Assembly (NCBI GenBank): GCA_951406725.2
Contig: OX597821.1
Location: 97,712,001-97,776,000, forward strand
Reading direction: 5' to 3'
DNA from: Octopus vulgaris
Taxonomy: Eukaryota
DNA length: 64,000 nt
Shown in pieces: positions 14,070-60,972 of this stretch. The translations under genes were made by a program, and so were the position numbers. The notes beneath the pieces are model-generated. The model ran no database searches, had not been told where the DNA came from, and worked only from the letters and a program-made list of their open reading frames with translations. Position 1 is the first letter of the stretch. Each line of letters begins with the position of its first letter.

Positions 14070-14229
14070 AGTTAATCCAAACATGAAAACACAAAGGGAA
14101 AAAAGAAAGAAAGAAGGAGGATTTAACGTTTTGAGCGGAGCTCTTTGTCAGAAACATAGAAAAAGGAAAGGTCCAAGGAAGGGAAGACGGAGAAAAAAAA
14201 TCGCCAACGATACACATGCGGTCACATAT
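14070..14229 (-). mobile_element. Hammerhead family-2 element, internally deleted, core mutated
   Basis: Same ends as the 16640 copy. The core reads CTGACAA...AAAAC on the - strand. Confidence 0.7.
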
Positions 14230-14251
14230 TGAATCAATATGAATATATCAT

Positions 14252-16639: not shown

Positions 16640-16836
16640 AGTTAATCCAAACATGAAAGCACAAAAAAAACACAACGCGAGGACGTTGAACAAATATAGT
16701 ATTATTGGAAGCTCAGGAAAGAAGGAGGGTTTAATGTTTCGAGCAGAGCTCTTCGTCGGAAACATAGAAGGAAAGATCCAGAGAATGGAAGACAAAGGAA
16801 AAAAATCGCCAACGGTACACACGAGGTCACATTTTG
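16640..16836 (-). mobile_element. Hammerhead family-2 element nested in the internal (TA)n of a SINE-A copy (about 16380-16990, -)
   Basis: agttaatccaaac...tttcgagcagagctcttcgtcggaaacatag...ggtcacatttt is flanked by TA repeats, and SINE sequence continues on both sides. Confidence 0.75.
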
Positions 16837-19347: not shown

Positions 19348-20647
19348 TTAGGTTGTCGAGTAGGAAATTTATAGTAAGGTATATGGTAAATCGTGGCAGC
19401 TGCTCATTTTGCGCCATTATTATATTTTGACAATCTTTAATTTTTTTTTTAAGCTGACACATCTATTTCTTTATTCTAACTCATTTTGTGCATTATAGTG
19501 TATTTATAAATCATTTTTTTGCTGTTTTTGTTTAGATATGGATAAGTCGGAAATTCGTATAGTTTTGAAATATAAGTTCCTTCTTGGAAATACATCACAG
19601 ACAGCTCAGAGTATTAATGGAGTATTTCATTTTAATGTTATTACACAGCAGACAGTATCAAATTGGTTTGCAAAATTTCGTTCTGGTAACTTTGACCTCA
19701 CAAATGAGTAATGTGGTTGCCCAGAAACAAAGGTGGATAATGACGAACTGAAAGCCACCATCGAGTCAGATCCATCTCAAAGTGCCTGTGAATTATCGTT
19801 GTTGTTTGGTGTTAGCAAGCAAACAATACTGACTCACCTAGTTCAAATTGGTAAAGTGAAAAAGTTGGATAAGTGGGTTCCACATGAACTCAATGAAAGC
19901 CAGAAACAGCAATATTTGGGAACCTGCATTATGCTACTTTTTTGTCACAAAAATGTATCATTTTTGAATTGAATTGTAACATATGATGAGAAATGGATCC
20001 AATACAACAATCGTATATGTTCAGCACAATGGCTGGACAAAGATGAGCCACCAAAACACAGTCCAAAAGCAAAATTCATCAAAAGAAGCTGATGGTGTGT
20101 GTTTGGTAATCTGGTGCAGGTGTGATCCATTATGACTTCATTAAACCTGGCTTATCAATCATGGCTGAAGTACACTGCAGCCAGCTGGACCAAATGATGC
20201 AGAAACTTACCAAAAAACAACCTAGATTAGTCAACAGATCCACTTCTATTTAATTGCAAGACAACGCCAAACTACACATTGCAAAAATGACATTGGCAGC
20301 CCAGAACTGTAAAAGCCTGGCAATCTAGAATCACTAAAACCTTGGAAGGCCTGTTTTACAGCATCGTCAGAATCAAATTATTTTCCTATCAAAAACTTAT
20401 CCAAATTCTGGAAGAAGTGGTAGTCAGTGGGGGCAAGATCAGGTGAGTATGGTGGATGATGGAGAACTTCCAACTCCAACTCCTGTAGTTTTGCCAATAT
20501 CATTTTTGCGATGTGTGGTTTGGCTGAAATGGCAAAAGTGTATTGACAATATGGGTGCATACTTTGATGAATAAAACTATTCCTTGTATTTATAAAACAT
20601 TAGCAAACTTTTTTTTCTTTTCTACATATTCATACTTGATGACCTAA
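19348..20647 (+). mobile_element. Full-length (1.3 kb) inactive mariner transposon with an internal inversion
   Basis: TA-flanked TIRs TTAGGTTGTCGAGTAGGAAAT and TTAGGTCATCAAGTATGAATAT (reverse complement). Transposase from ATG 19538 with WVPHEL, IVTYDEKW, QDNA, YSPDLAPTDY (inverted) and WQKCIDNMGAYFDE*. Confidence 0.92.
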
Positions 20648-20672: not shown

Positions 20673-23123
20673 ATCATCATCATCATCATCATCATCATCA
20701 TCGTTTAACGTCCGTTTTCCGCGCTAGCACGGGTTGGACGGTTCGACCGGGGTCTGGGAAGCCAGGGGCCGCTCCAGGCTCCAGTCTGATCTGGCAGAGT
20801 TTCTACGGCTGGATGCCCTTCCTAACGCCAACCACTCCGCGAGTGGAGTGGGTGCTTTTTACGTGCCACCTGCACAGGGGCCGGGGGGGTCCGGCATCGG
20901 TCACGATCGGTTCGAGCTTTTAATGTGCCAGCGGCACGGGAGCCAGCCAAGGCGGTGCTGGCAACGTTCCGATGGTCTTACCAGCACAGAGGCCAGTCGG
21001 GGCAGCACTGGCATCGGCCACGTTCGGATAGTACTTTTTATGTGCCACCGGTACAGGCATCATAACTCCTATTTCCATTGATATTTATTTTGACGTTCAT
21101 GTTCATGTACTTGACTCAACAGGTCTCCTCAGGCACAGCAGGACGATCTGGGATCCGGGGTACTTTGAATGGGCAGGGGCTATGTGGAACTGATGCAGGA
21201 AGCAGCCCGGGTCTTTGCAGTCACAGCATATCTCCAGAGATCTCGGTCCTTCGCCATTGTCTCAGTGAGGCCCAAGGCTCTGAGGTCATGCTTGACTACC
21301 TCATCCCATGTCTTCCTGGGTCTACCTCTCCCCCTGATACCTTCAACTGTTTGGGAGTGGCACTTCTTCACACATCTCTCTTCATCCATCCGCAGCACAT
21401 GACCATACCATCGCAAGCGTCGCTCTTGCACACCACATCTGATGCTTCTTATATCCAGCATTTCTCTCAGGATGCTTACACTCTGTCGTGCATGCACACT
21501 GACACTACACATCCAGCGGATCATGCTAGCTTCATTTCTTTCAAGTCTACGCATGTCCTCTGCAGTCACAGCCCATGTTTCATTACTGTGAAGCATGGCA
21601 GTTCACACACATGCATCATACAATCTACCTTTCGCTCTGAGGGAGAGACCCTTTGTCGCCAGTAGGGGTAGGAGCTTTCTGAACTTTGCCCAGGCTATTC
21701 GTATTCTAGTGGTGATACTCTCTGTGCATCCACCTCCGCTACTAACTTGGTCACCCAGGTAGCGGAAACTATCAACTACTTCTAGTTTCTCTCCCTGGAG
21801 TGTGATGGAATCTGTTTTCTGAGTGTCTGTTGTGTCTATTGCCCCTATGCATCTGCCGCACATGAAAGCTATCTTATCTGTTAATTTCCCTTTAATGTTG
21901 CTGCACCTCTTATGCGTCCATAGCTTACATTGGGTGCATCTTATGGAGTTTCTACCTGTACCTTTCCTACAGATTGAGCAGGGCCACCTACCCGAGGGGG
22001 TGTGTGCTGAGTACGCCTTGCTGCTTACTATTACTTTGGTTTTTGCTACATTTACTCTAAGGCCCTTTGATTCTAACCCTTGCTTCCACACCCGAAATTT
22101 CTTTTCTAGTTCCGGTAGTGATTCTGCTATGAGAGCTAGGTCATCAGCATAGAGGAGCTCCCAGGGGCATCCCGTTTTGAATTCCTCTGTTATTGCCTGG
22201 AGGACTATGATGAATAAAAGGGGACTGAGGGCTGAGCCCTGGTGCACACCTACTTCTACCTGGAATTCTTCACTATATTCGTTGCCAATCCTAACCTTGC
22301 TGACAGCCTCTCTGTATAGAGCCTGTACAGCCCTTATTAGCCATTCGTCAATCTCCAGTTTCCGCATCGACCACCAGATAAGGGAACGGGGAACCCTGTC
22401 AAAGGCTTTCTCCAAGTCCACAAAAGCTATGTAGAGGGGTTTATCTTTAGCTAGGTACTTCTCCTGCAGTTGTCGGACCAGGAATATAGCATCAGTGGTG
22501 CTTCTACCTGGTACAAAACCAAACTGCATTTCATCTAAGCAAATTCTCTCCCTAATGAGATGGGTTATGACCCTCTCTGAGACCTTCATCACCTGGTCCA
22601 ACAGTTTGATACCCCTGTAGTTATTTCTATCTAGAGCATCACCCTTACCCTTGTAGCAGTTGACTATGGTGCTGCTGCGCCAGTCATTGGGTATGACTCC
22701 ATTGTGAACTACCTGGTTTACAATGCGGGTAACTATGCCATAGCCCACATAGCCAGCTGTTTTAAGCATCTCAGCAGTGATTCCTGATGGGCCGGGGGCT
22801 TTACCTGGTTTCATATCCTTAATTGCCTTATCTACAAGGGAGCTGTCTATTCGGGTAGCTGGTCCCTCTACTGGGTCAACATTTGGCAGGCTCTCCTCCT
22901 CCCATTCATTCTCCTCGTTCAGCAGTCTTTCATAATGGCTTCTCCAAGCCTCTTTCTTTTCACTAACAGTAAAAGCAAGTGCCCCATCATCCATGCGGAC
23001 ACATTTCTCTCCTGTAACATCACTATTTTCTCTGACACACTGTCTGGCAATCCGAAATACCTCAGCTCTTTGGTCCTCGCGTCGCTGGACATTGGCAAAC
23101 TTCTTCTTTTCTGCTACATCTTC
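20673..23123 (-). mobile_element. 5'-truncated RTE-type non-LTR retrotransposon, young copy, (GAT)n tail
   Basis: RT motifs KAPGPSG, NYRGIKLL, QFGFVPGRSTTDAIF, AFVDLEKAFDRV, GVHQGSALSPLLF, LLYADD. C-terminal RLRWYGHVLR and RGRGRPRKTW. About 500-bp 3' UTR ending in (CAT)n on the + strand. Confidence 0.93.
21180..23120 (-). pseudogene. LINE ORF (RT, PHD finger, C-terminal region), one in-frame stop at 21603-21605, endonuclease domain lost by truncation
   Basis: Track ORFs 21603..22994 and 21180..21596 share a frame (YDACV*TAMLH). The frame also stays open upstream of 22994 to about 23120. Confidence 0.88.
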
Positions 23124-24402: not shown

Positions 24403-25384
24403 AATGTGTGTATATGTGCACACACATTACAATTACCAGAATTACACAAGAATTTATCTTCCTCTAATATAATAGGATAATTATTTACTTATCTTTGATA
24501 ATTAACCCTATATGAATTGGTTAATTATAGATTACCATTGTAACATCTTCCCCCACCACTCTTGCTGTTCGTTCTTCAATTTCACTATCATTAGTACCAT
24601 CACAACCATTATCATCACCACCAACACTATCACCATCATTAGTATCACTACCATCACCACAGCCACCATAACTACTGCAGCCACTACTACCTCTACTACC
24701 ACCATTACTGCCACCTTTACTAATATTAATCTTTACCACTTCCTGCCCCACAGCCACACAATCACTCCAACACCCTTCTTTTCTCTTTTATCTCCTTTAC
24801 CCTTCCCCATTGCTTAGTCATTACCATTGGCACTTCTTCACTACCACCACCACCCCTTTCATCAACACTAACTGTCATAGTGATCATCTATATGGTTACT
24901 AAACAATGCTAGAAAGAGCAATCACATTTCCCTCAAATCGTACCACATATGCATGTACAGAAGCATGTGTACAAGCATACATGCATACATACATCATATA
25001 TATATATATACACACTCACACACACATACGTACGTGCGTGCATGCATGCATGCATGCATGCATACATACATACATACATACATTACAAACAAAACACACA
25101 CACACATACTTCAAAGTACTGACCTGTGGCAGGGACTAAAACACCACTCCTTATTCTTACAAACTAGCCAGCCTTACTACTAGCCTGTTGTTTACAGCTA
25201 CAACCACACACACATATACACACACATGCACACACACACACGCACACACACATGCAGACCTCCGCGCACACACACATCCACACTTACACACACATTCCCC
25301 CTCCTAACATTCCGCTGTCTTTGACTATACTACTCTTCTGTCTTTGAAAACATCTTTCTTCACCCTTTTTCCTTCCGGTCTTTC

Positions 25385-25594
25385 AAAATGTGACCTCATG
25401 TGTACCGTTGGCGATTTTTTTTCCTCTGTCTTCCCTTCTCTGGATCTTTCCTTCTCCTATGTTTCCGACGAAGAGCTCCGCTTGAAACGTTAAACCCTCC
25501 TTCTTTCCTTCTTTCCTGAGCGTCCAATAATACTATATTTGTTCCACGTCCTCGCGTTGTTGTGTTTTTTTGTGTTTTCTTGTTTGGATTAACT
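25385..25594 (+). mobile_element. About 210-bp dispersed element carrying hammerhead family 2
   Basis: Homologous to reverse-oriented copies at about 14070-14229, 16640-16836 and 41490-41620. Followed by a long (TACA)n. Confidence 0.75.
25461..25495 (+). ncRNA. Putative minimal type-I hammerhead ribozyme (family 2)
   Basis: GTTT-CCGACGA-A-GAGC TCC GCTT-GAAA-CGTT-AAAC: stem I GTTT/AAAC, stem II GAGC/GCTY, palindromic AACGTT stem III. Confidence 0.5.
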
Positions 25595-25600
25595 CCATAC

Positions 25601-25602
<2 letters not shown>

Positions 25603-25631
<29 letters not shown>

Positions 25632-25862
25632 CATACCTGCATACACACATACATACATACATACATACATACATACATACATACATACATACATACATAC
25701 ATACATACATACATACATACATACATACATACATACATACATACATACATGCATACATACATACATACATACATACATACAGACATGCATGCATGCATGC
25801 ATGCATGCATACATACATACATACATACATACATACATACATACATACATACATACATACAT
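25603..25862. repeat. (TACA)n microsatellite with (TGCA) variants
   Basis: Read directly. Confidence 0.95.
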
Positions 25863-29822: not shown

Positions 29823-29995
29823 GGAGAAAAACCAAATATTTTAATGTTAATGGGCAACAGAAAATATTCTTAAACAGAAGATGCAGGAATCAATGTGGAT
29901 CATTTATTTTCTTTCTCTCTTTTGTTTTCTCTGTTTTTACATTCCATTTTTATTTGTTTTCTATTTCCTCATATTTTTGCTTTCTTTTTTTGCAG

Positions 29996-41489: not shown

Positions 41490-41617
41490 TGGATTGGACA
41501 GGAAGGAAGGAGGGTTTAACATTTCGAGCGGAGCTCTTTGTCGGAAACATAGGAGAAGGAAAGATAGAGAAGGGAAGACAGAGAAAAAAAAATTGCCAAC
41601 GGTACACACGCGGTTAC

Positions 41618-41620
<3 letters not shown>
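41490..41620 (-). mobile_element. Hammerhead family-2 element, partial, core mutated
   Basis: ggaaggaaggagggtttaacatttcgagcggagctctttgtcggaaacatagg...cggttacatt, then (TA)n. Confidence 0.7.
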
Positions 41621-49795: not shown

Positions 49796-49944
49796 TGTAC
49801 TACCTGTGTAGTATTCCAAATTGTTAATCATTAGACTACTTCCTACTGCTGGCTTTCTTTGATATCCAGTCTGGTATTTCCTCTAACTCAGTGATAGGTG
49901 TAGTTTATTATATAAGGGGTTTGTGGTTTGCTTGCCTTCCTACT

Positions 49945-50750
49945 TATTAGGACTTTGGTTTTAGCTAGGTTGACTCTAAGGCCCTTCGATCCTAATCCTT
50001 GTTTCCACACCTGAAACTTCTCCTCTAGTTTTGATAGGGACTCAGCAATTAGAGCAAGGTCATCAGTATAGAGGAGCTCCTGTCCTGAATTCCTCTGTTA
50101 TTGCCTGGAGAACTATGATAAATAGGAGGGGGCTGAGGACTGAACCTTGGTGGACCCCTACCGCTACGCGGAATTCTTCAGTATACTCATTGCCAACTCT
50201 CACCTTACTGACAGCATCCCTATACATGGCTTGCACAGCTCTCACTAACCATTCATCTATCCCTAGTTTCCTCATTGATAAGGGATCGGGAGACCCTATC
50301 AAAGGCTTTCTCCATGTCAATGAAAGCCAGGTACAGAGGTTTATCTTCTGCAGCTGTCTTACCAGAAATATAGCATCAGTGGTGCTTTTCCCTGGCATGA
50401 ACCCAAACTGCATCTCATCTAAACTCTCTCCCTAATTAGTTGGGCTATGACCCTCTCCGTGACCTTCATTACCTGATCCAACAACTTGATACCTCTGTAA
50501 TTATTTGTATCTAAAGCGTCACCTTTACCTTTGTTGCAGTTGACTATAATGCTGCTACACCAGCCATTGGGAATGACTCCTTTGTTTATCACCTGGTTAA
50601 CTATACTGGTGACTAGGCTATAGCTGACACTGCCAGATATTTTGAGCATCTCTGCAGTGATTCCTAATGGGCTGGGGGCTTTCCCTGTATTCATATTCTT
50701 AATTGCTTTATCTACCAAGGTGCTGTCAACTCGGATAGCTGGTCCCTATA
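49945..50750 (-). mobile_element. Decayed RT fragment of the same RTE family
   Basis: KAPSPLGITAEMLK, NYRGIKLLDQVMKV, QFGFMPGKSTTDAIF, GVHQGSVLSPLLF, with frameshifts. Confidence 0.9.
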
Positions 50751-51101
50751 CAAAATGGGACAAGAATGCAAAACATCCAGACAGTTAGGTGATACAAAAA
50801 AATGACAACAAAACATCAAGATAGACGATGCTAAGAAAACAAGAATGGGTCATTCGGAGTTTTCTTTCCTCAGTTGAGTTCCAGATTATCTTTGCAATTT
50901 CAGCTGGTTATACTCAAGATTGCTCCAATCTGGCCAGCCCCAAGGAAAAACTAAGCTAAGAGCATTAGATTCCTTGGAAGAAAGCAGCGAATATATACAA
51001 AAACAAGGACGGGAAAAAATGATGGAGAATGTTACACAAATGCAAATAACAGGACATAACAATAGGTGTCTTTTGACTAAGGATGAATTAAATTACATAT
51101 A

Positions 51102-52397
51102 TCAGATCATTAAGAACGAAATGTCTAATTTTGAACTGAAAGTTATTTTACTTTATCCCAACAAAAGGCAATGCAGTTAATCAAAGTATGCACCTAAATT
51201 ATCAACACATTTTTGCCGTTAATCAGTAGCTTATTTATGCCAGCAGTGAAGAATTCTGGAGAGCAAGAGGGGATGAAATCACAAAAGGCTCTTTTTGCAT
51301 CTTCTTCAAATTTGGAGATTTTTACCTTGCAAAACGTTGCCTAATGCCTGGAAAACGTGATAGTCAGTTGGTGCAAGGTCTGGTGAATATGGTGGATGAC
51401 ACAGTACTTCCAGTGATAGTCAGTTGGTGCAAGGTCTGGTGAATATGGTGGATGACACAGTACTTCCAAGTTCAGTCCATGTAACTTGAGGAGCATTCTT
51501 AATGCAACGTGGTCAAGCATTGGCCTGTCTCTATTGACCAGTCTTCATTGTTTAATTGCAAGTTCACTCATCATTTCATCCAACTGATTGATGTATACAT
51601 CCACTGGAATTGACCAAATCTCATGAAGCTGAAGTGGATGACACAAGTGCTGGACCACCAAACAGACACCATTAGCTTTTTATGGTGAATATTCTTTTTT
51701 GGATTGTATTTTGGCACTTTGTCTCTATCCAACCACTGTGCCACATGCTTGCTATTGTTAAAAAGAATCCATTTTTCATCACACATAAGATGATGCAAAA
51801 ACAGTTTGCTTTTATGCTGTGATAGCAAAGAACAGCAAGTTTCAAGATGACATGTCATTTGACGCTAGTTCAGTTCATGTGGTACCCACTTGTCCAGCTT
51901 CTTTACCATGCCGATTTGTTTCAGATGGTCCTGAAATTGCAACATCAAACCTTGCTGCTAACTCACACATAATTTGAGATGTATCTACTACTACATTTTC
52001 CAGCTCATCATTATCCATCTTGGTGACAGGTCTACCACGGGGCTGATTTCCAAGAGTAAAGTCGCCAGACTGGAACTTCTCAAACCATCAACGTACAGTG
52101 CTCTCATTCACCACATCTTTACCAAATACCTCATTGATGTTTTGAACTGTCTGGGATGCATTGGTTCCCTGACTGAATTCATATTCACAAACAACACAAA
52201 TTTTTCATCTATCTATGGATTCACAAAAATTGATTTACATGAGAAAACTCGCAATACAATCAGACACCATGAATTGCATTTCGAAAAGTGTTGGTGTAAC
52301 TCTTCAATGTTATAAAACAAAGAATTGTCAGGATAAAACATTAGACTGTCAAACTTGGTGCATAAGAAAATCGGACATTTCATTCTTAATAACTTGA
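51102..52397 (-). mobile_element. Full-length inactive mariner transposon
   Basis: TA-flanked TIRs TCAGATCATTAAGAACGAAATGTC and TCAAGTTATTAAGAATGAAATGTC. KWVPHEL, CDEKWILF and HPPYSPDLAPTDYH on the - strand. Confidence 0.9.
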
Positions 52398-60059: not shown

Positions 60060-60972
60060 CAGTGTTTGGACAAAATAATGGCAACACCTTAAAATTTCAA
60101 ACAAATTTATTTTAATATGGGGTAGGACCACCTTTGGCAGTAATTACAGCTTGAATTCTATGACGTATGTACTCGTATAAAGTTTGAATTGTTTCGAAAG
60201 GAATTTTTGTCCATTCTTCAGCTAAAACAGTCTCCAGTTCTTGTAGTGATGATGATGGTGGAGTATATTGACTCCTTACTTGTTTTTCTAAAATGCACCA
60301 TAAATGTTCAATAATAATGAGATCTGGGGACTGTGTTGGCCAGATAGGATGTTCAACTTCACTAGAATGTTCCTCATGCTATGCAGCAACAACTTGAGGT
60401 GTGTGAATTGGTGCATTATCATCTTGAAAGATTGTGTTTCCCTCTGGAAACAGGTCCACAACCATAGGATGAATTTGATCAGATAAAATGCTTAAATAGT
60501 CTTGACTATTAATTCTGCCATGAAGGGAAATGAATGGGCTGGCAGATTTCCAAGATATTGCCCCCTAGATCATTACAGATCCTCCTCCATGTTTAACAGT
60601 TGGAAGAAGGCAATCTGGGTCAAATGCTTCTTTTGGCTGTCTCCACACGTATACTTAGCTGGTGGTTGGAAATAAGGTAAAGGATGACTTGTCTGAGAAA
60701 ATAACATTCTTCCACTGCTCTAGGGACCAATTCTGTAGGTTTTTACTCCACTCTAAACACTTTGCAATGTTTGTTTTTGTCATTTTAATGAATTTTAATT
60801 ACCTTTTTCTGATGATATCTGAAAAGAAAGAGCAATTTTAGCAAAACATATTAAGCAATACTAATGATAAATCGAAAAACATAAAAATAAACAAGCTTTT
60901 GACGGTTTTATAGATATTTTAAAATTATGATGCTATGATGCTAGGTGTTTCCGTTATTTTGTCCAACCCCTG
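60060..60972 (-). mobile_element. Internally deleted Tc1-like transposon
   Basis: TA-flanked 30-bp TIRs CAGTGTTTGGACAAAATAATGGCAACACCT and CAGGGGTTGGACAAAATAACGGAAACACCT. The - strand reads IFSDKSSF, FQDDNAPIH and QSPDLIIIEHLW. Confidence 0.85.

What the first reader, a model, noticed from the sequence alone, without database searches (positions are those of the whole stretch)
25385..25594. A short dispersed element family built around a minimal hammerhead motif (four copies; retrozyme/Penelope-like)
Seen: an element of about 210 bp at 14070(-), 16640(-), 25385(+) and 41490(-), each abutting a (TA)n or (TACA)n tract. I found no Pol III boxes, TIRs or ORF in it. Its centre is GTTT CCGACGA A GAGC TCC GCTC GAAA CGTT AAAC: a 4-bp stem I, a 4-bp stem II and a loopless palindromic AACGTT stem III. 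Known: palindromic stem III is typical of minimal hammerheads that cleave as dimers in Penelope-like elements and non-LTR retrozymes. Only the 25461 copy keeps the whole core; the others have CpG-type hits at G8, G12 or stem III. Inference: a possibly undescribed ribozyme-bearing mobile RNA family, with the intact copy in sense orientation in the 27.6-kb intron.
Basis: partly seen in the sequence, partly recalled or inferred. Interest (0 to 1): 0.75.

Follow-up and report, generated by a model that had tools for sequence, protein, structure and literature searches.

The report
Penelope retrotransposon ends with minimal hammerhead
The repeat is the end piece of a known kind of jumping gene (a Penelope-like retrotransposon) and carries that gene's usual stripped-down, predicted self-cutting RNA motif; most copies stop at one point about 210 letters from the end, which likely marks where the element's RNA starts.

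Summary
The four copies are real, but they are not a stand-alone ribozyme RNA family. [quoted passage not shown] In 17 of 20 endonuclease-anchored loci this 210-bp end follows the gene, and three complete copies carry it at both ends. The motif fits the minimal hammerhead described for such elements in 2014. The 25461 copy is not special: the genome holds 4,524 exact copies of the 35-nt motif, and this copy carries a G10.1·U11.1 wobble and is really about 520 bp long. Head-to-tail arrays are rare (22 junctions), so it is not a retrozyme array. One feature is unusual: 30 of 30 position-ordered copies are 162-217 nt, with 5' ends piled at a conserved TTCA motif. Every common variant of short copies also occurs in long copies. 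This fits run-off cDNA of an uncut transcript's 5' leader. Neither cleavage nor the start site could be tested. The scan noted the same pile-up earlier in other genomes. Verdict: new member of a known kind, with a modest mechanistic lead.

The parts
25084..25594 (+). 5'-truncated copy of a Penelope-like element (family B): last ~510 bp of the 3' UTR plus pLTR; the 5' edge is blurred by CA-rich sequence (25068-25096)
   Evidence: 84-88% identity to four long copies over 25068/25096-25594; shared upstream sequence in L031-L060
25382..25594 (+). pLTR unit of about 212 nt; starts at TTCAAAATG, where most genomic copies begin (inferred RNA 5' end)
25461..25495 (+). minimal type I hammerhead motif: stem I GUUU/AAAC, core CCGACGA (U4C), extra A between 9 and 10.1, stem II GAGC/GCUU (G10.1·U11.1 in this copy), GAAA, palindromic ACGU, H17 = U; predicted cut 25491^25492
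   Evidence: sequence; family-wide counts; covariation in related families
25595..25860 (.). (TACA)n microsatellite at the 3' junction; a similar tract lies at 25040-25083, so no target-site duplication can be defined
16640..16836 (-). short solo pLTR copy in (TA)n; 16.2 G>A breaks the stem III palindrome
14070..14233 (-). short solo pLTR copy, subfamily B2, about 50-nt internal deletion, G8>A and G12>A
41500..41620 (-). pLTR fragment lacking the last 84 nt, G8>A and 15.2 C>T

Best explanation
The element is the terminal repeat (pLTR) of a (TA)n-inserting Penelope-like retrotransposon with an RT and GIY-YIG gene, and the motif inside it is that class's minimal hammerhead, predicted to cut only weakly and only as a dimer; the abundant ~210-nt solo copies are likely run-off cDNAs of the 5' leader of the element's uncut RNA. 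Steps. (1) Shown: the 210-nt end follows the gene and precedes it in complete copies. (2) Shown: the upstream pLTR continues into TTATATA, which matches the (TA)n target, and insertions end exactly there. (3) Inferred: transcription starts in the pLTR at the conserved TCA motif about 212 nt before that junction. (4) Inferred: a nicked (TA)n target primes reverse transcription at the junction of the 5' pLTR, the RT passes the uncut hammerhead and runs off the RNA 5' end. Closure there gives a solo copy; a template jump there gives dimers, chimeras or long copies. (5) Inferred: the window copies are dead, neutrally decaying insertions and the 25461 motif is probably inert in the host intron. Confidence is about 0.95 for steps 1-2 and about 0.55 for steps 3-4.
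For: Linkage: L061 reads RT, linker, GIY-YIG, stop, 2-kb CA-rich UTR, then the 210-nt end at 96.7% identity to the window copy. 17 of 20 loci anchored on that endonuclease end terminate in the same 210 nt, 1.1-2.3 kb downstream (three of the 17 are near-duplicates on C5). L291, L198/L295 and L193/L296 have pLTR-ORF-UTR-pLTR. A young sister family (A) has 949-aa ORFs, 8 of 8 compared 99.5-99.9% identical, in 6.2-kb tandem units with the motif at each unit end; its homologues carry RVT_1 and often GIY-YIG (822 hits). Hammerhead: 33 of 35 nt identical between A and B against 59 of 103 and 71 of 105 alignment columns in the flanks. A pattern excluding the B stem gave 757 matches against 1 control, with other stem II pairs (GGAC/GUCC, GGCU/AGCC); an extra A sits between 9 and 10.1 in 30 of 30 loci, and stem I pairs 4 of 4 in 17 of 30, including 6 of 12 not alignable to B. 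Pile-up: 30 of 30 position-ordered motif-anchored copies are 162-217 nt, 24 of them 190-217; the stop rate is 0.059 per nt there against 0.004 in the 135-189 zone; a 22-mer inside the unit has 6,950 exact copies, one about 40 nt upstream of it has 81; of 30 copies passing 11 nt beyond the point, 22 run on at least 40 nt. Short copies of A and of older families start at the homologous TCA. All 7 direct head-to-tail junctions among 22 join a 3' end to (T)TCAAAATG. All common variants of short copies occur in long copies (166 short, 76 long). D. virilis Penelope has an internal promoter and starts within the upstream pLTR (PMC2377424, passages).
Against: No RNA evidence: all 20 runs were contigs and none is on record as RNA. 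The 81-versus-6,950 ratio overstates the drop because subfamily B2 has a different upstream sequence; among 13 incidental copies 2 were longer than 217 nt and 4 shorter than 135 nt. The cap-like extra G is weak: 5 of 24 B2 copies (4 independent events) against 5.6% background, p = 0.009 before collapsing the duplicate, while 9 of 24 carry the templated C one base further. The point is AT-rich (AAAAT), so microhomology with (TA)n may sharpen it. Family A copies mostly run far past the point (2 of about 17 stop there), which needs efficient jumps or another template. PMC3846280 (passages) argues for an antisense, self-primed template. The motif has U4C, reported to lower activity considerably in vitro (PMC3088659, one passage), and the monomer's predicted fold is not the hammerhead (-6.5 against -3.8 kcal/mol).
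Confidence: 0.8

Rival explanations
1. The ~210-nt unit is a self-propagating, SINE-like non-autonomous derivative: solo pLTRs are transcribed from their internal promoter and mobilised in trans by the Penelope-like RT.
For: Short copies outnumber long ones roughly 5- to 80-fold depending on the sample. Solo copies keep the whole inferred internal promoter. T-subfamily short copies are more diverged than long ones (median 0.046, n 49, against 0.024, n 59). pLTRs suffice in cis for mobilisation in a rotifer (PMC3846280, passages).
Against: Apparent short-only markers (G-197 in 34 of 78 short, 0 of 54 long) vanished once B2 long copies were fetched (14 of 76 long). Only six minor variants (6-11 of about 165 short copies) were absent from long copies. 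B2 short and long copies are equally diverged (0.053 and 0.058). L358 has the 5'-UTR tail that only an upstream pLTR carries. The long T set was chosen by similarity to the window copy, which biases it young.
Confidence: 0.2
2. The pile-up is only a 5'-truncation hotspot of ordinary target-primed reverse transcription from the 3' end (RT pause or AAAAT microhomology with the TA target), with no link to a transcription start.
For: 5' ends scatter over about 30 nt and most abut (TA)n. PLE insertions are usually 5'-truncated (PMC8557442 section 6).
Against: AT-rich tracts nearer the 3' end and further upstream do not collect ends. The point is homologous across families whose surrounding sequence is about 60% alike. 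Family A RT passes the same motif in most copies.
Confidence: 0.25
3. A non-LTR retrozyme: tandem hammerhead repeats that give circular RNA and re-insert.
For: Monomer size (about 215 nt) and G+C below 50% fit; one trimer and one tetramer exist (L342/343, L354-356). A 2026 preprint treats retrozymes as pLTR derivatives, with monomer fractions up to 1 (10.64898/2026.07.22.740005, main text read).
Against: 22 head-to-tail junctions against at least 6,950 copies. The motif is minimal, not canonical type I. No insertion end lies at the cut site: 0 of 13 incidental copies start there. A circular template would give no fixed 5' limit.
Confidence: 0.05

Closest known systems
Minimal hammerheads (min-HHR) in pLTRs of metazoan Penelope-like elements (Cervera and De la Peña 2014, PMC4209133; parts 1-2 of 4 read: abstract, results, discussion, bioinformatic methods)
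   Same: In both pLTRs of an RT + GIY-YIG element; short helix I; one unpaired nucleotide between 9 and 10.1; G10.1-C11.1; palindromic 15.2-16.2 without loop; most motifs solo and from truncated copies; thousands per genome.
   Different: Helix II is 4 bp (7-8 bp in Schistosoma); U4C core; GUU triplet in family B and GUC in family A. The sections read describe no fixed 5' limit of solo copies, and no cephalopod family; supplements were not seen.
Neptune / Nematis clades of EN+ Penelope-like elements (Craig et al. 2021, PMC8557442; 12 passages and section 6 read)
   Same: RT then CX2-5CxxC linker then C-terminal GIY-YIG with CCHH; DKG motif; partial tandems forming pLTRs; inverted 5'-truncated copies; optional short tail; (TA)n bias.
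   Different: 3' UTR is long (2-3 kb) and CA-rich. Neptune versus Nematis was not resolved, since no named references were on hand.
Metazoan non-LTR retrozymes (Cervera and De la Peña 2020, PMC7229834, 12 of 18 passages; Li, Clavereau and Pollet 2026, 10.64898/2026.07.22.740005, parts 1-3 of 5)
   Same: Size, low G+C, type I hammerhead, derivation from pLTRs.
   Different: Defined by tandem repeats and circular RNA; here solo copies whose ends are unrelated to the cut site, with a coding parent in the same genome.
Minus-strand strong-stop DNA of LTR retroelements (recalled, from no call)
   Same: Short cDNA from an internal priming site to the RNA 5' end, followed by a jump. This is what the solo copies would work like.
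   Different: Primer would be nicked (TA)n target DNA, not tRNA; the product is integrated as it is; no integrase or true LTR.

Membership tests
EN+ Penelope-like element | single ORF with RT and GIY-YIG endonuclease | tested here: met
   L061 and 17 of 20 linked loci; sister ORF 949 aa: Pfam RVT_1 E 0.0018 and GIY-YIG E 0.013, both below the curated cut-offs; 822 homologues with RVT_1, many with GIY-YIG
EN+ Penelope-like element | pLTRs from partial tandems; inverted 5'-truncated copies | tested here: met
   L291, L198/L295, L193/L296; tandem units of family A; inverted pieces in L011, L014, L070, L185, L420
Neptune or Nematis clade | CX2-5CxxC linker between RT and C-terminal EN; CCHH in EN | tested here: met
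   CSRSRCNTC, then CIKCNLC...EHL...HF in the family A ORF; same linker in L061
Neptune clade specifically | RT phylogeny groups with named Neptune elements rather than Nematis | not testable with these tools
   no named PLE references among the 120 homologues listed; no Repbase or Dfam
min-HHR of PLEs | core C3, G5, A6, G8, A9, G12, A13, A14, A15.1, U16.1, H17 | tested here: met
   present at 25461-25495; 71 of 109 copies not picked on the motif keep core and stem III; position 4 is C in 80 of 109
min-HHR of PLEs | extra nucleotide between 9 and 10.1, G10.1-C11.1 pair, palindromic 15.2-16.2 | tested here: met
   family-wide A 109 of 109, G10.1 105, C11.1 105; the 25461 copy has U11.1
min-HHR of PLEs | covariation in helices I and II across families | tested here: met
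   stem II GAGC/GCUC, GGAC/GUCC, GGCU/AGCC; stem I GUUU/AAAC, GUAU/AUAC, UCUU/GAGA; 13 of 30 loci do not pair 4 of 4 in stem I, and family A has a U·U mismatch there
hammerhead ribozyme (function) | self-cleavage after H17, as a dimer | not testable with these tools
   no raw RNA reads; no Rfam hammerhead match at E <= 10 in 25384-25594
non-LTR retrozyme | tandem repeats of hammerhead-bearing monomers | tested here: not met
   22 junctions genome-wide against at least 6,950 copies
non-LTR retrozyme | abundant circular RNA | not testable with these tools
   only contigs available; no back-joint listed in four RNA-guess runs
tRNA/7SL/5S SINE | Pol III A and B boxes | tested here: not met
   none by two recalled patterns in 25084-25594
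independent non-autonomous PLE derivative | lineages of short copies with diagnostic changes absent from long copies | tested here: inconclusive
   major variants shared; six minor variants only in short copies; sample 166 short and 76 long, long set biased

The most novel reading that the evidence does not exclude
Penelope-like elements replicate by a strong-stop and template-jump route primed on the (TA)n target inside their own 5' pLTR, and the strength of the hammerhead sets the outcome: the weak GUU family leaves tens of thousands of 210-nt run-off copies (30 of 30 short), while the GUC families mostly make long copies (9 of 30 short). The solo copies would then be a genomic map of the transcription start and the first in vivo read-out of what the ribozyme does.
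Probability: 0.2. Interest if true: 0.7.

Novelty: new member of a known kind. Interest (0 to 1): 0.33.

Why it matters
As a motif it is ordinary: minimal hammerheads in Penelope pLTRs have been known since 2014. What could matter is the replication cycle of these elements, which the papers read call unresolved. This genome holds an old family with a sharp 5' limit and a young sister family with intact ORFs, the same ribozyme core and a different cleavage triplet. That pair makes the questions 'where does the RNA start, where is it primed, and does the ribozyme matter' directly testable. In practice, the family contributes tens of thousands of short inserts that repeat pipelines could mislabel as SINEs.

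Tried and rejected
Rfam: no hammerhead family among the 150 best of 188 matches in the window (38 not shown) and none among 3 matches in 25384-25594. Whole-element fold: z = +1.19, less stable than shuffles, so no viroid-like or retrozyme-like rod. Short-only subfamily markers were rejected after fetching B2 long copies. Insertions starting at the cut site: 0 of 13 incidental copies. Selection on the motif among dispersed copies: non-CpG differences 0.027 inside against 0.037-0.048 outside, CpG 0.085 against 0.057; not taken as selection, since subfamily and alignment effects inflate the outside figure. Sequencing runs: no RNA holder listed; contigs from four RNA-guess runs cover the 210-nt unit and from one run the family A ORF start, with no splice or back joints listed; uninformative for start, cut or expression. 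PDB sequence search of the ORF: 0 matches. No PLE ORF in the window itself. The scan's look-up by sequence returned nothing. The energy printed for family A's constrained fold forces a U·U pair and was ignored. Literature searches gave no paper on this family or on strong-stop copies of Penelope elements; one search returned one Copia paper, seen only as a listing. The library lacks most subscription papers, and Repbase, Dfam and the octopus repeat library of PMC13282606 (supplements not seen) may already hold the family.

Full report
Observation. Four copies exist at 25385-25594(+), 16640-16836(-), 14070-14233(-) and 41500-41620(-), 86-91% alike. Only the 16640 copy is a plain 200-nt unit. 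The 14070 copy has an internal deletion, the 41490 copy lacks 84 nt at the 3' end, and the focal copy extends to about 25070-25095. The CpG-type lesions named for the other three copies are right. The window is G000:C8:97712001-97776000 in a 2.8-Gb genome. Its repeats resemble octopus SINEs (recalled, not tested).

What it belongs to. The 30 best genomic matches all end at or within 2 nt of GGATTAACT, nearly all followed by TA-rich simple repeat, and several share upstream sequence. Walking upstream reached L051, with an RT fragment, and L061, which reads RT, CX4CxxC linker, GIY-YIG, stop, 2-kb CA-rich UTR and then the 210-nt end at 96.7% identity to the window copy. I fetched 20 of the 40 best matches to that endonuclease end (ranks 2-21): 17 end in the same 210 nt, 3 do not within the stretch fetched. 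Three complete copies have it on both sides of the ORF; in L291 the unit is 5.36 kb and the ORF is broken (6 stops in the best frame). The upstream pLTR continues into TTATATACCGC, so the element carries a short match to its (TA)n target exactly where insertions end. A sister family (A) is intact and young. Its protein hits Pfam RVT_1 and GIY-YIG below the curated cut-offs and has 822 homologues. Domain order and linker place it with Neptune or Nematis as described in PMC8557442; the two were not separated.

The hammerhead. The motif has every hallmark listed for PLE minimal hammerheads in PMC4209133: short helix I, one nucleotide between 9 and 10.1, G10.1-C11.1, palindromic 15.2-16.2. It is conserved between families A and B (33 of 35 nt; flanks 59 of 103 and 71 of 105 columns). 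It covaries in other families of the genome (757 matches, control 1; stem I paired 4 of 4 in 17 of 30 loci). It is common: 4,524 exact B motifs and 1,467 of the GUC form; 31 of 109 copies not picked on the motif are exact and 71 keep core and stem III. Copy number: at least about 16,000 from the exact fraction (biased to young copies), 5 copies in 140 kb of position-picked DNA (about 100,000, 95% range 32,000-233,000), 13 pieces in about 440 kb of incidental DNA. Activity is untested. The 2014 paper found no monomer cleavage and low dimer cleavage for a Schistosoma motif; the 2026 preprint found cleavage in 1 of 9 Xenopus dimers; U4C lowers activity in vitro; that GUU cuts worse than GUC is recalled. 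The focal copy has no same-strand partner in the window and is probably inert.

The short form. Position-ordered samples show a sharp upper limit. All 30 motif-anchored copies are 162-217 nt, all 30 copies anchored on a 22-mer inside the unit are at most 215 nt (this set overlaps the first), and the five copies at 87% identity or more in 140 kb of position-picked DNA are 190-211 nt. The stop rate rises 15-fold in the last 28 nt. 3,581 copies reach TTCAA and 376 match 11 nt further; of 30 of the latter, 22 run on, 7 stop within a few nt and 1 is a chimera. Against a perfect limit: 2 of 13 incidental copies are longer and 4 are under 135 nt, and the focal copy is itself a long one. The limit sits at a TCA motif that is homologous in family A (2 of about 17 copies start exactly there) and in older families; in subfamily B2 it reads TCATTC, an initiator-like word (recalled consensus). 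Head-to-tail junctions number 22; the 7 without a TA spacer all resume at (T)TCAAAATG. A possible cap-derived G is seen in 4 independent events, a weak sign. I first took some variants as private to short copies, but B2 has its own long copies, some with ORF pieces upstream, and the major variants are shared. So the short form arises from each subfamily and is not shown to be an independent SINE.

Mechanism. Shown: pLTR identity, fixed 3' end at a target-matching TATA, 5' pile-up, ends unrelated to the cut site. Inferred: transcription starts at the TCA in the pLTR, as D. virilis Penelope starts within its upstream pLTR from an internal promoter; the nicked (TA)n target primes at the junction of the 5' pLTR; RT crosses the uncut ribozyme and runs off the cap; closure gives a solo copy and a jump gives dimers, chimeras or long copies. 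The contrast between GUU (30 of 30 short) and GUC copies (9 of 30 short; Fisher p 4e-9) suggests that ribozyme strength affects the outcome, but copies are not independent: this compares a few families of different age, and one GUC family is 4 of 7 short. Rivals are a SINE-like solo lineage, a plain truncation hotspot, and a retrozyme, which fails its tandem test.

Prior art. PMC4209133 already describes the motif, its place and the solo truncated copies. PMC3846280 (12 of 13 passages) describes 193-218-bp pLTRs with initiator-like sequence, solo pLTRs and tails. PMC7229834 and the 2026 preprint define retrozymes and derive them from pLTRs. PMC13282606 lists 31 recently active Penelope-like families in an octopus and has no occurrence of 'hammerhead' or 'ribozyme' in its main text (supplements not seen). 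PMC6962438 reports 235 Rfam hammerhead hits in the giant squid (2 passages). My searches found no paper on strong-stop copies of Penelope elements, within a library that lacks most subscription journals. The scan's notes hold 438 findings with these words, and two on other genomes (e1-9854223, e1-9849966) report the same fixed start. I had stated that reading before the look-up; their agreement is not independent evidence. Two other notes report copies beginning at the cut site, which prompted the check (0 of 13 here).

Verdict. A real, high-copy feature; a new member of a known kind. Interest 0.33, for the sharp 5' limit and the young sister family that makes it testable.

Noticed in passing
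window 1147-54645 (+): Host gene with an N-terminal LIM exon, coiled-coil exons near 29990, 33200 and 35970, and a 1.5-kb last exon with three KY-like Ig stretches (PF23265, E 1e-52); hillarin-like (name recalled).
   Followed up: partly
L101-L120 (e.g. G000:C10:97802000-97831999, C16:15977000-15996999): Very young, intact Penelope-like family A: 949-aa ORF, 99.5-99.9% identical among 8 copies compared, arrays of 2-3 units of 6.2 kb, 3-kb CA-rich 3' UTR; 1,467 exact copies of its 35-nt motif, shared with two related GUC families.
   Followed up: yes
L386:1096-1743: Mini element: pLTR, about 230 nt of 5' UTR, then a second pLTR; a natural two-hammerhead unit of about 450 nt.
   Followed up: partly
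L409 and L358: Chimeras that join the 5' limit of the short unit directly to ORF sequence (L409) or to a pLTR with a 15-nt 5'-UTR tail plus one G (L358); they look like template jumps.
   Followed up: partly
L342/L343 and L354-L356: A trimer (219-nt unit) and a tetramer (215-nt unit) of the short pLTR, the only retrozyme-like arrays seen.
   Followed up: partly
L311, L312, L324, L333, L334, L337: Other minimal-hammerhead families with different stems; no PLE ORF within 1.5 kb of any of the 30 loci.
   Followed up: no
window 23589, 29348, 33858, 43895, 44653, 48451, 52480, 57900, 61760, 63200 and 17389, 20660, 27477, 30700, 32581, 37253, 41063, 42430, 46855: Two abundant dispersed repeat families (about 410 bp and 270-420 bp), resembling octopus SINEs (recalled).
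   Followed up: no
window 21997-22871, 49916-50751; 19712-20250, 51574-52087, 60115-60564: LINE RT fragments (RVT_1, E 3e-7 for 50066-50431) and Tc1/mariner fragments (Transposase_1, E 8e-15 for 51574-51864).
   Followed up: no
   Followed up: no
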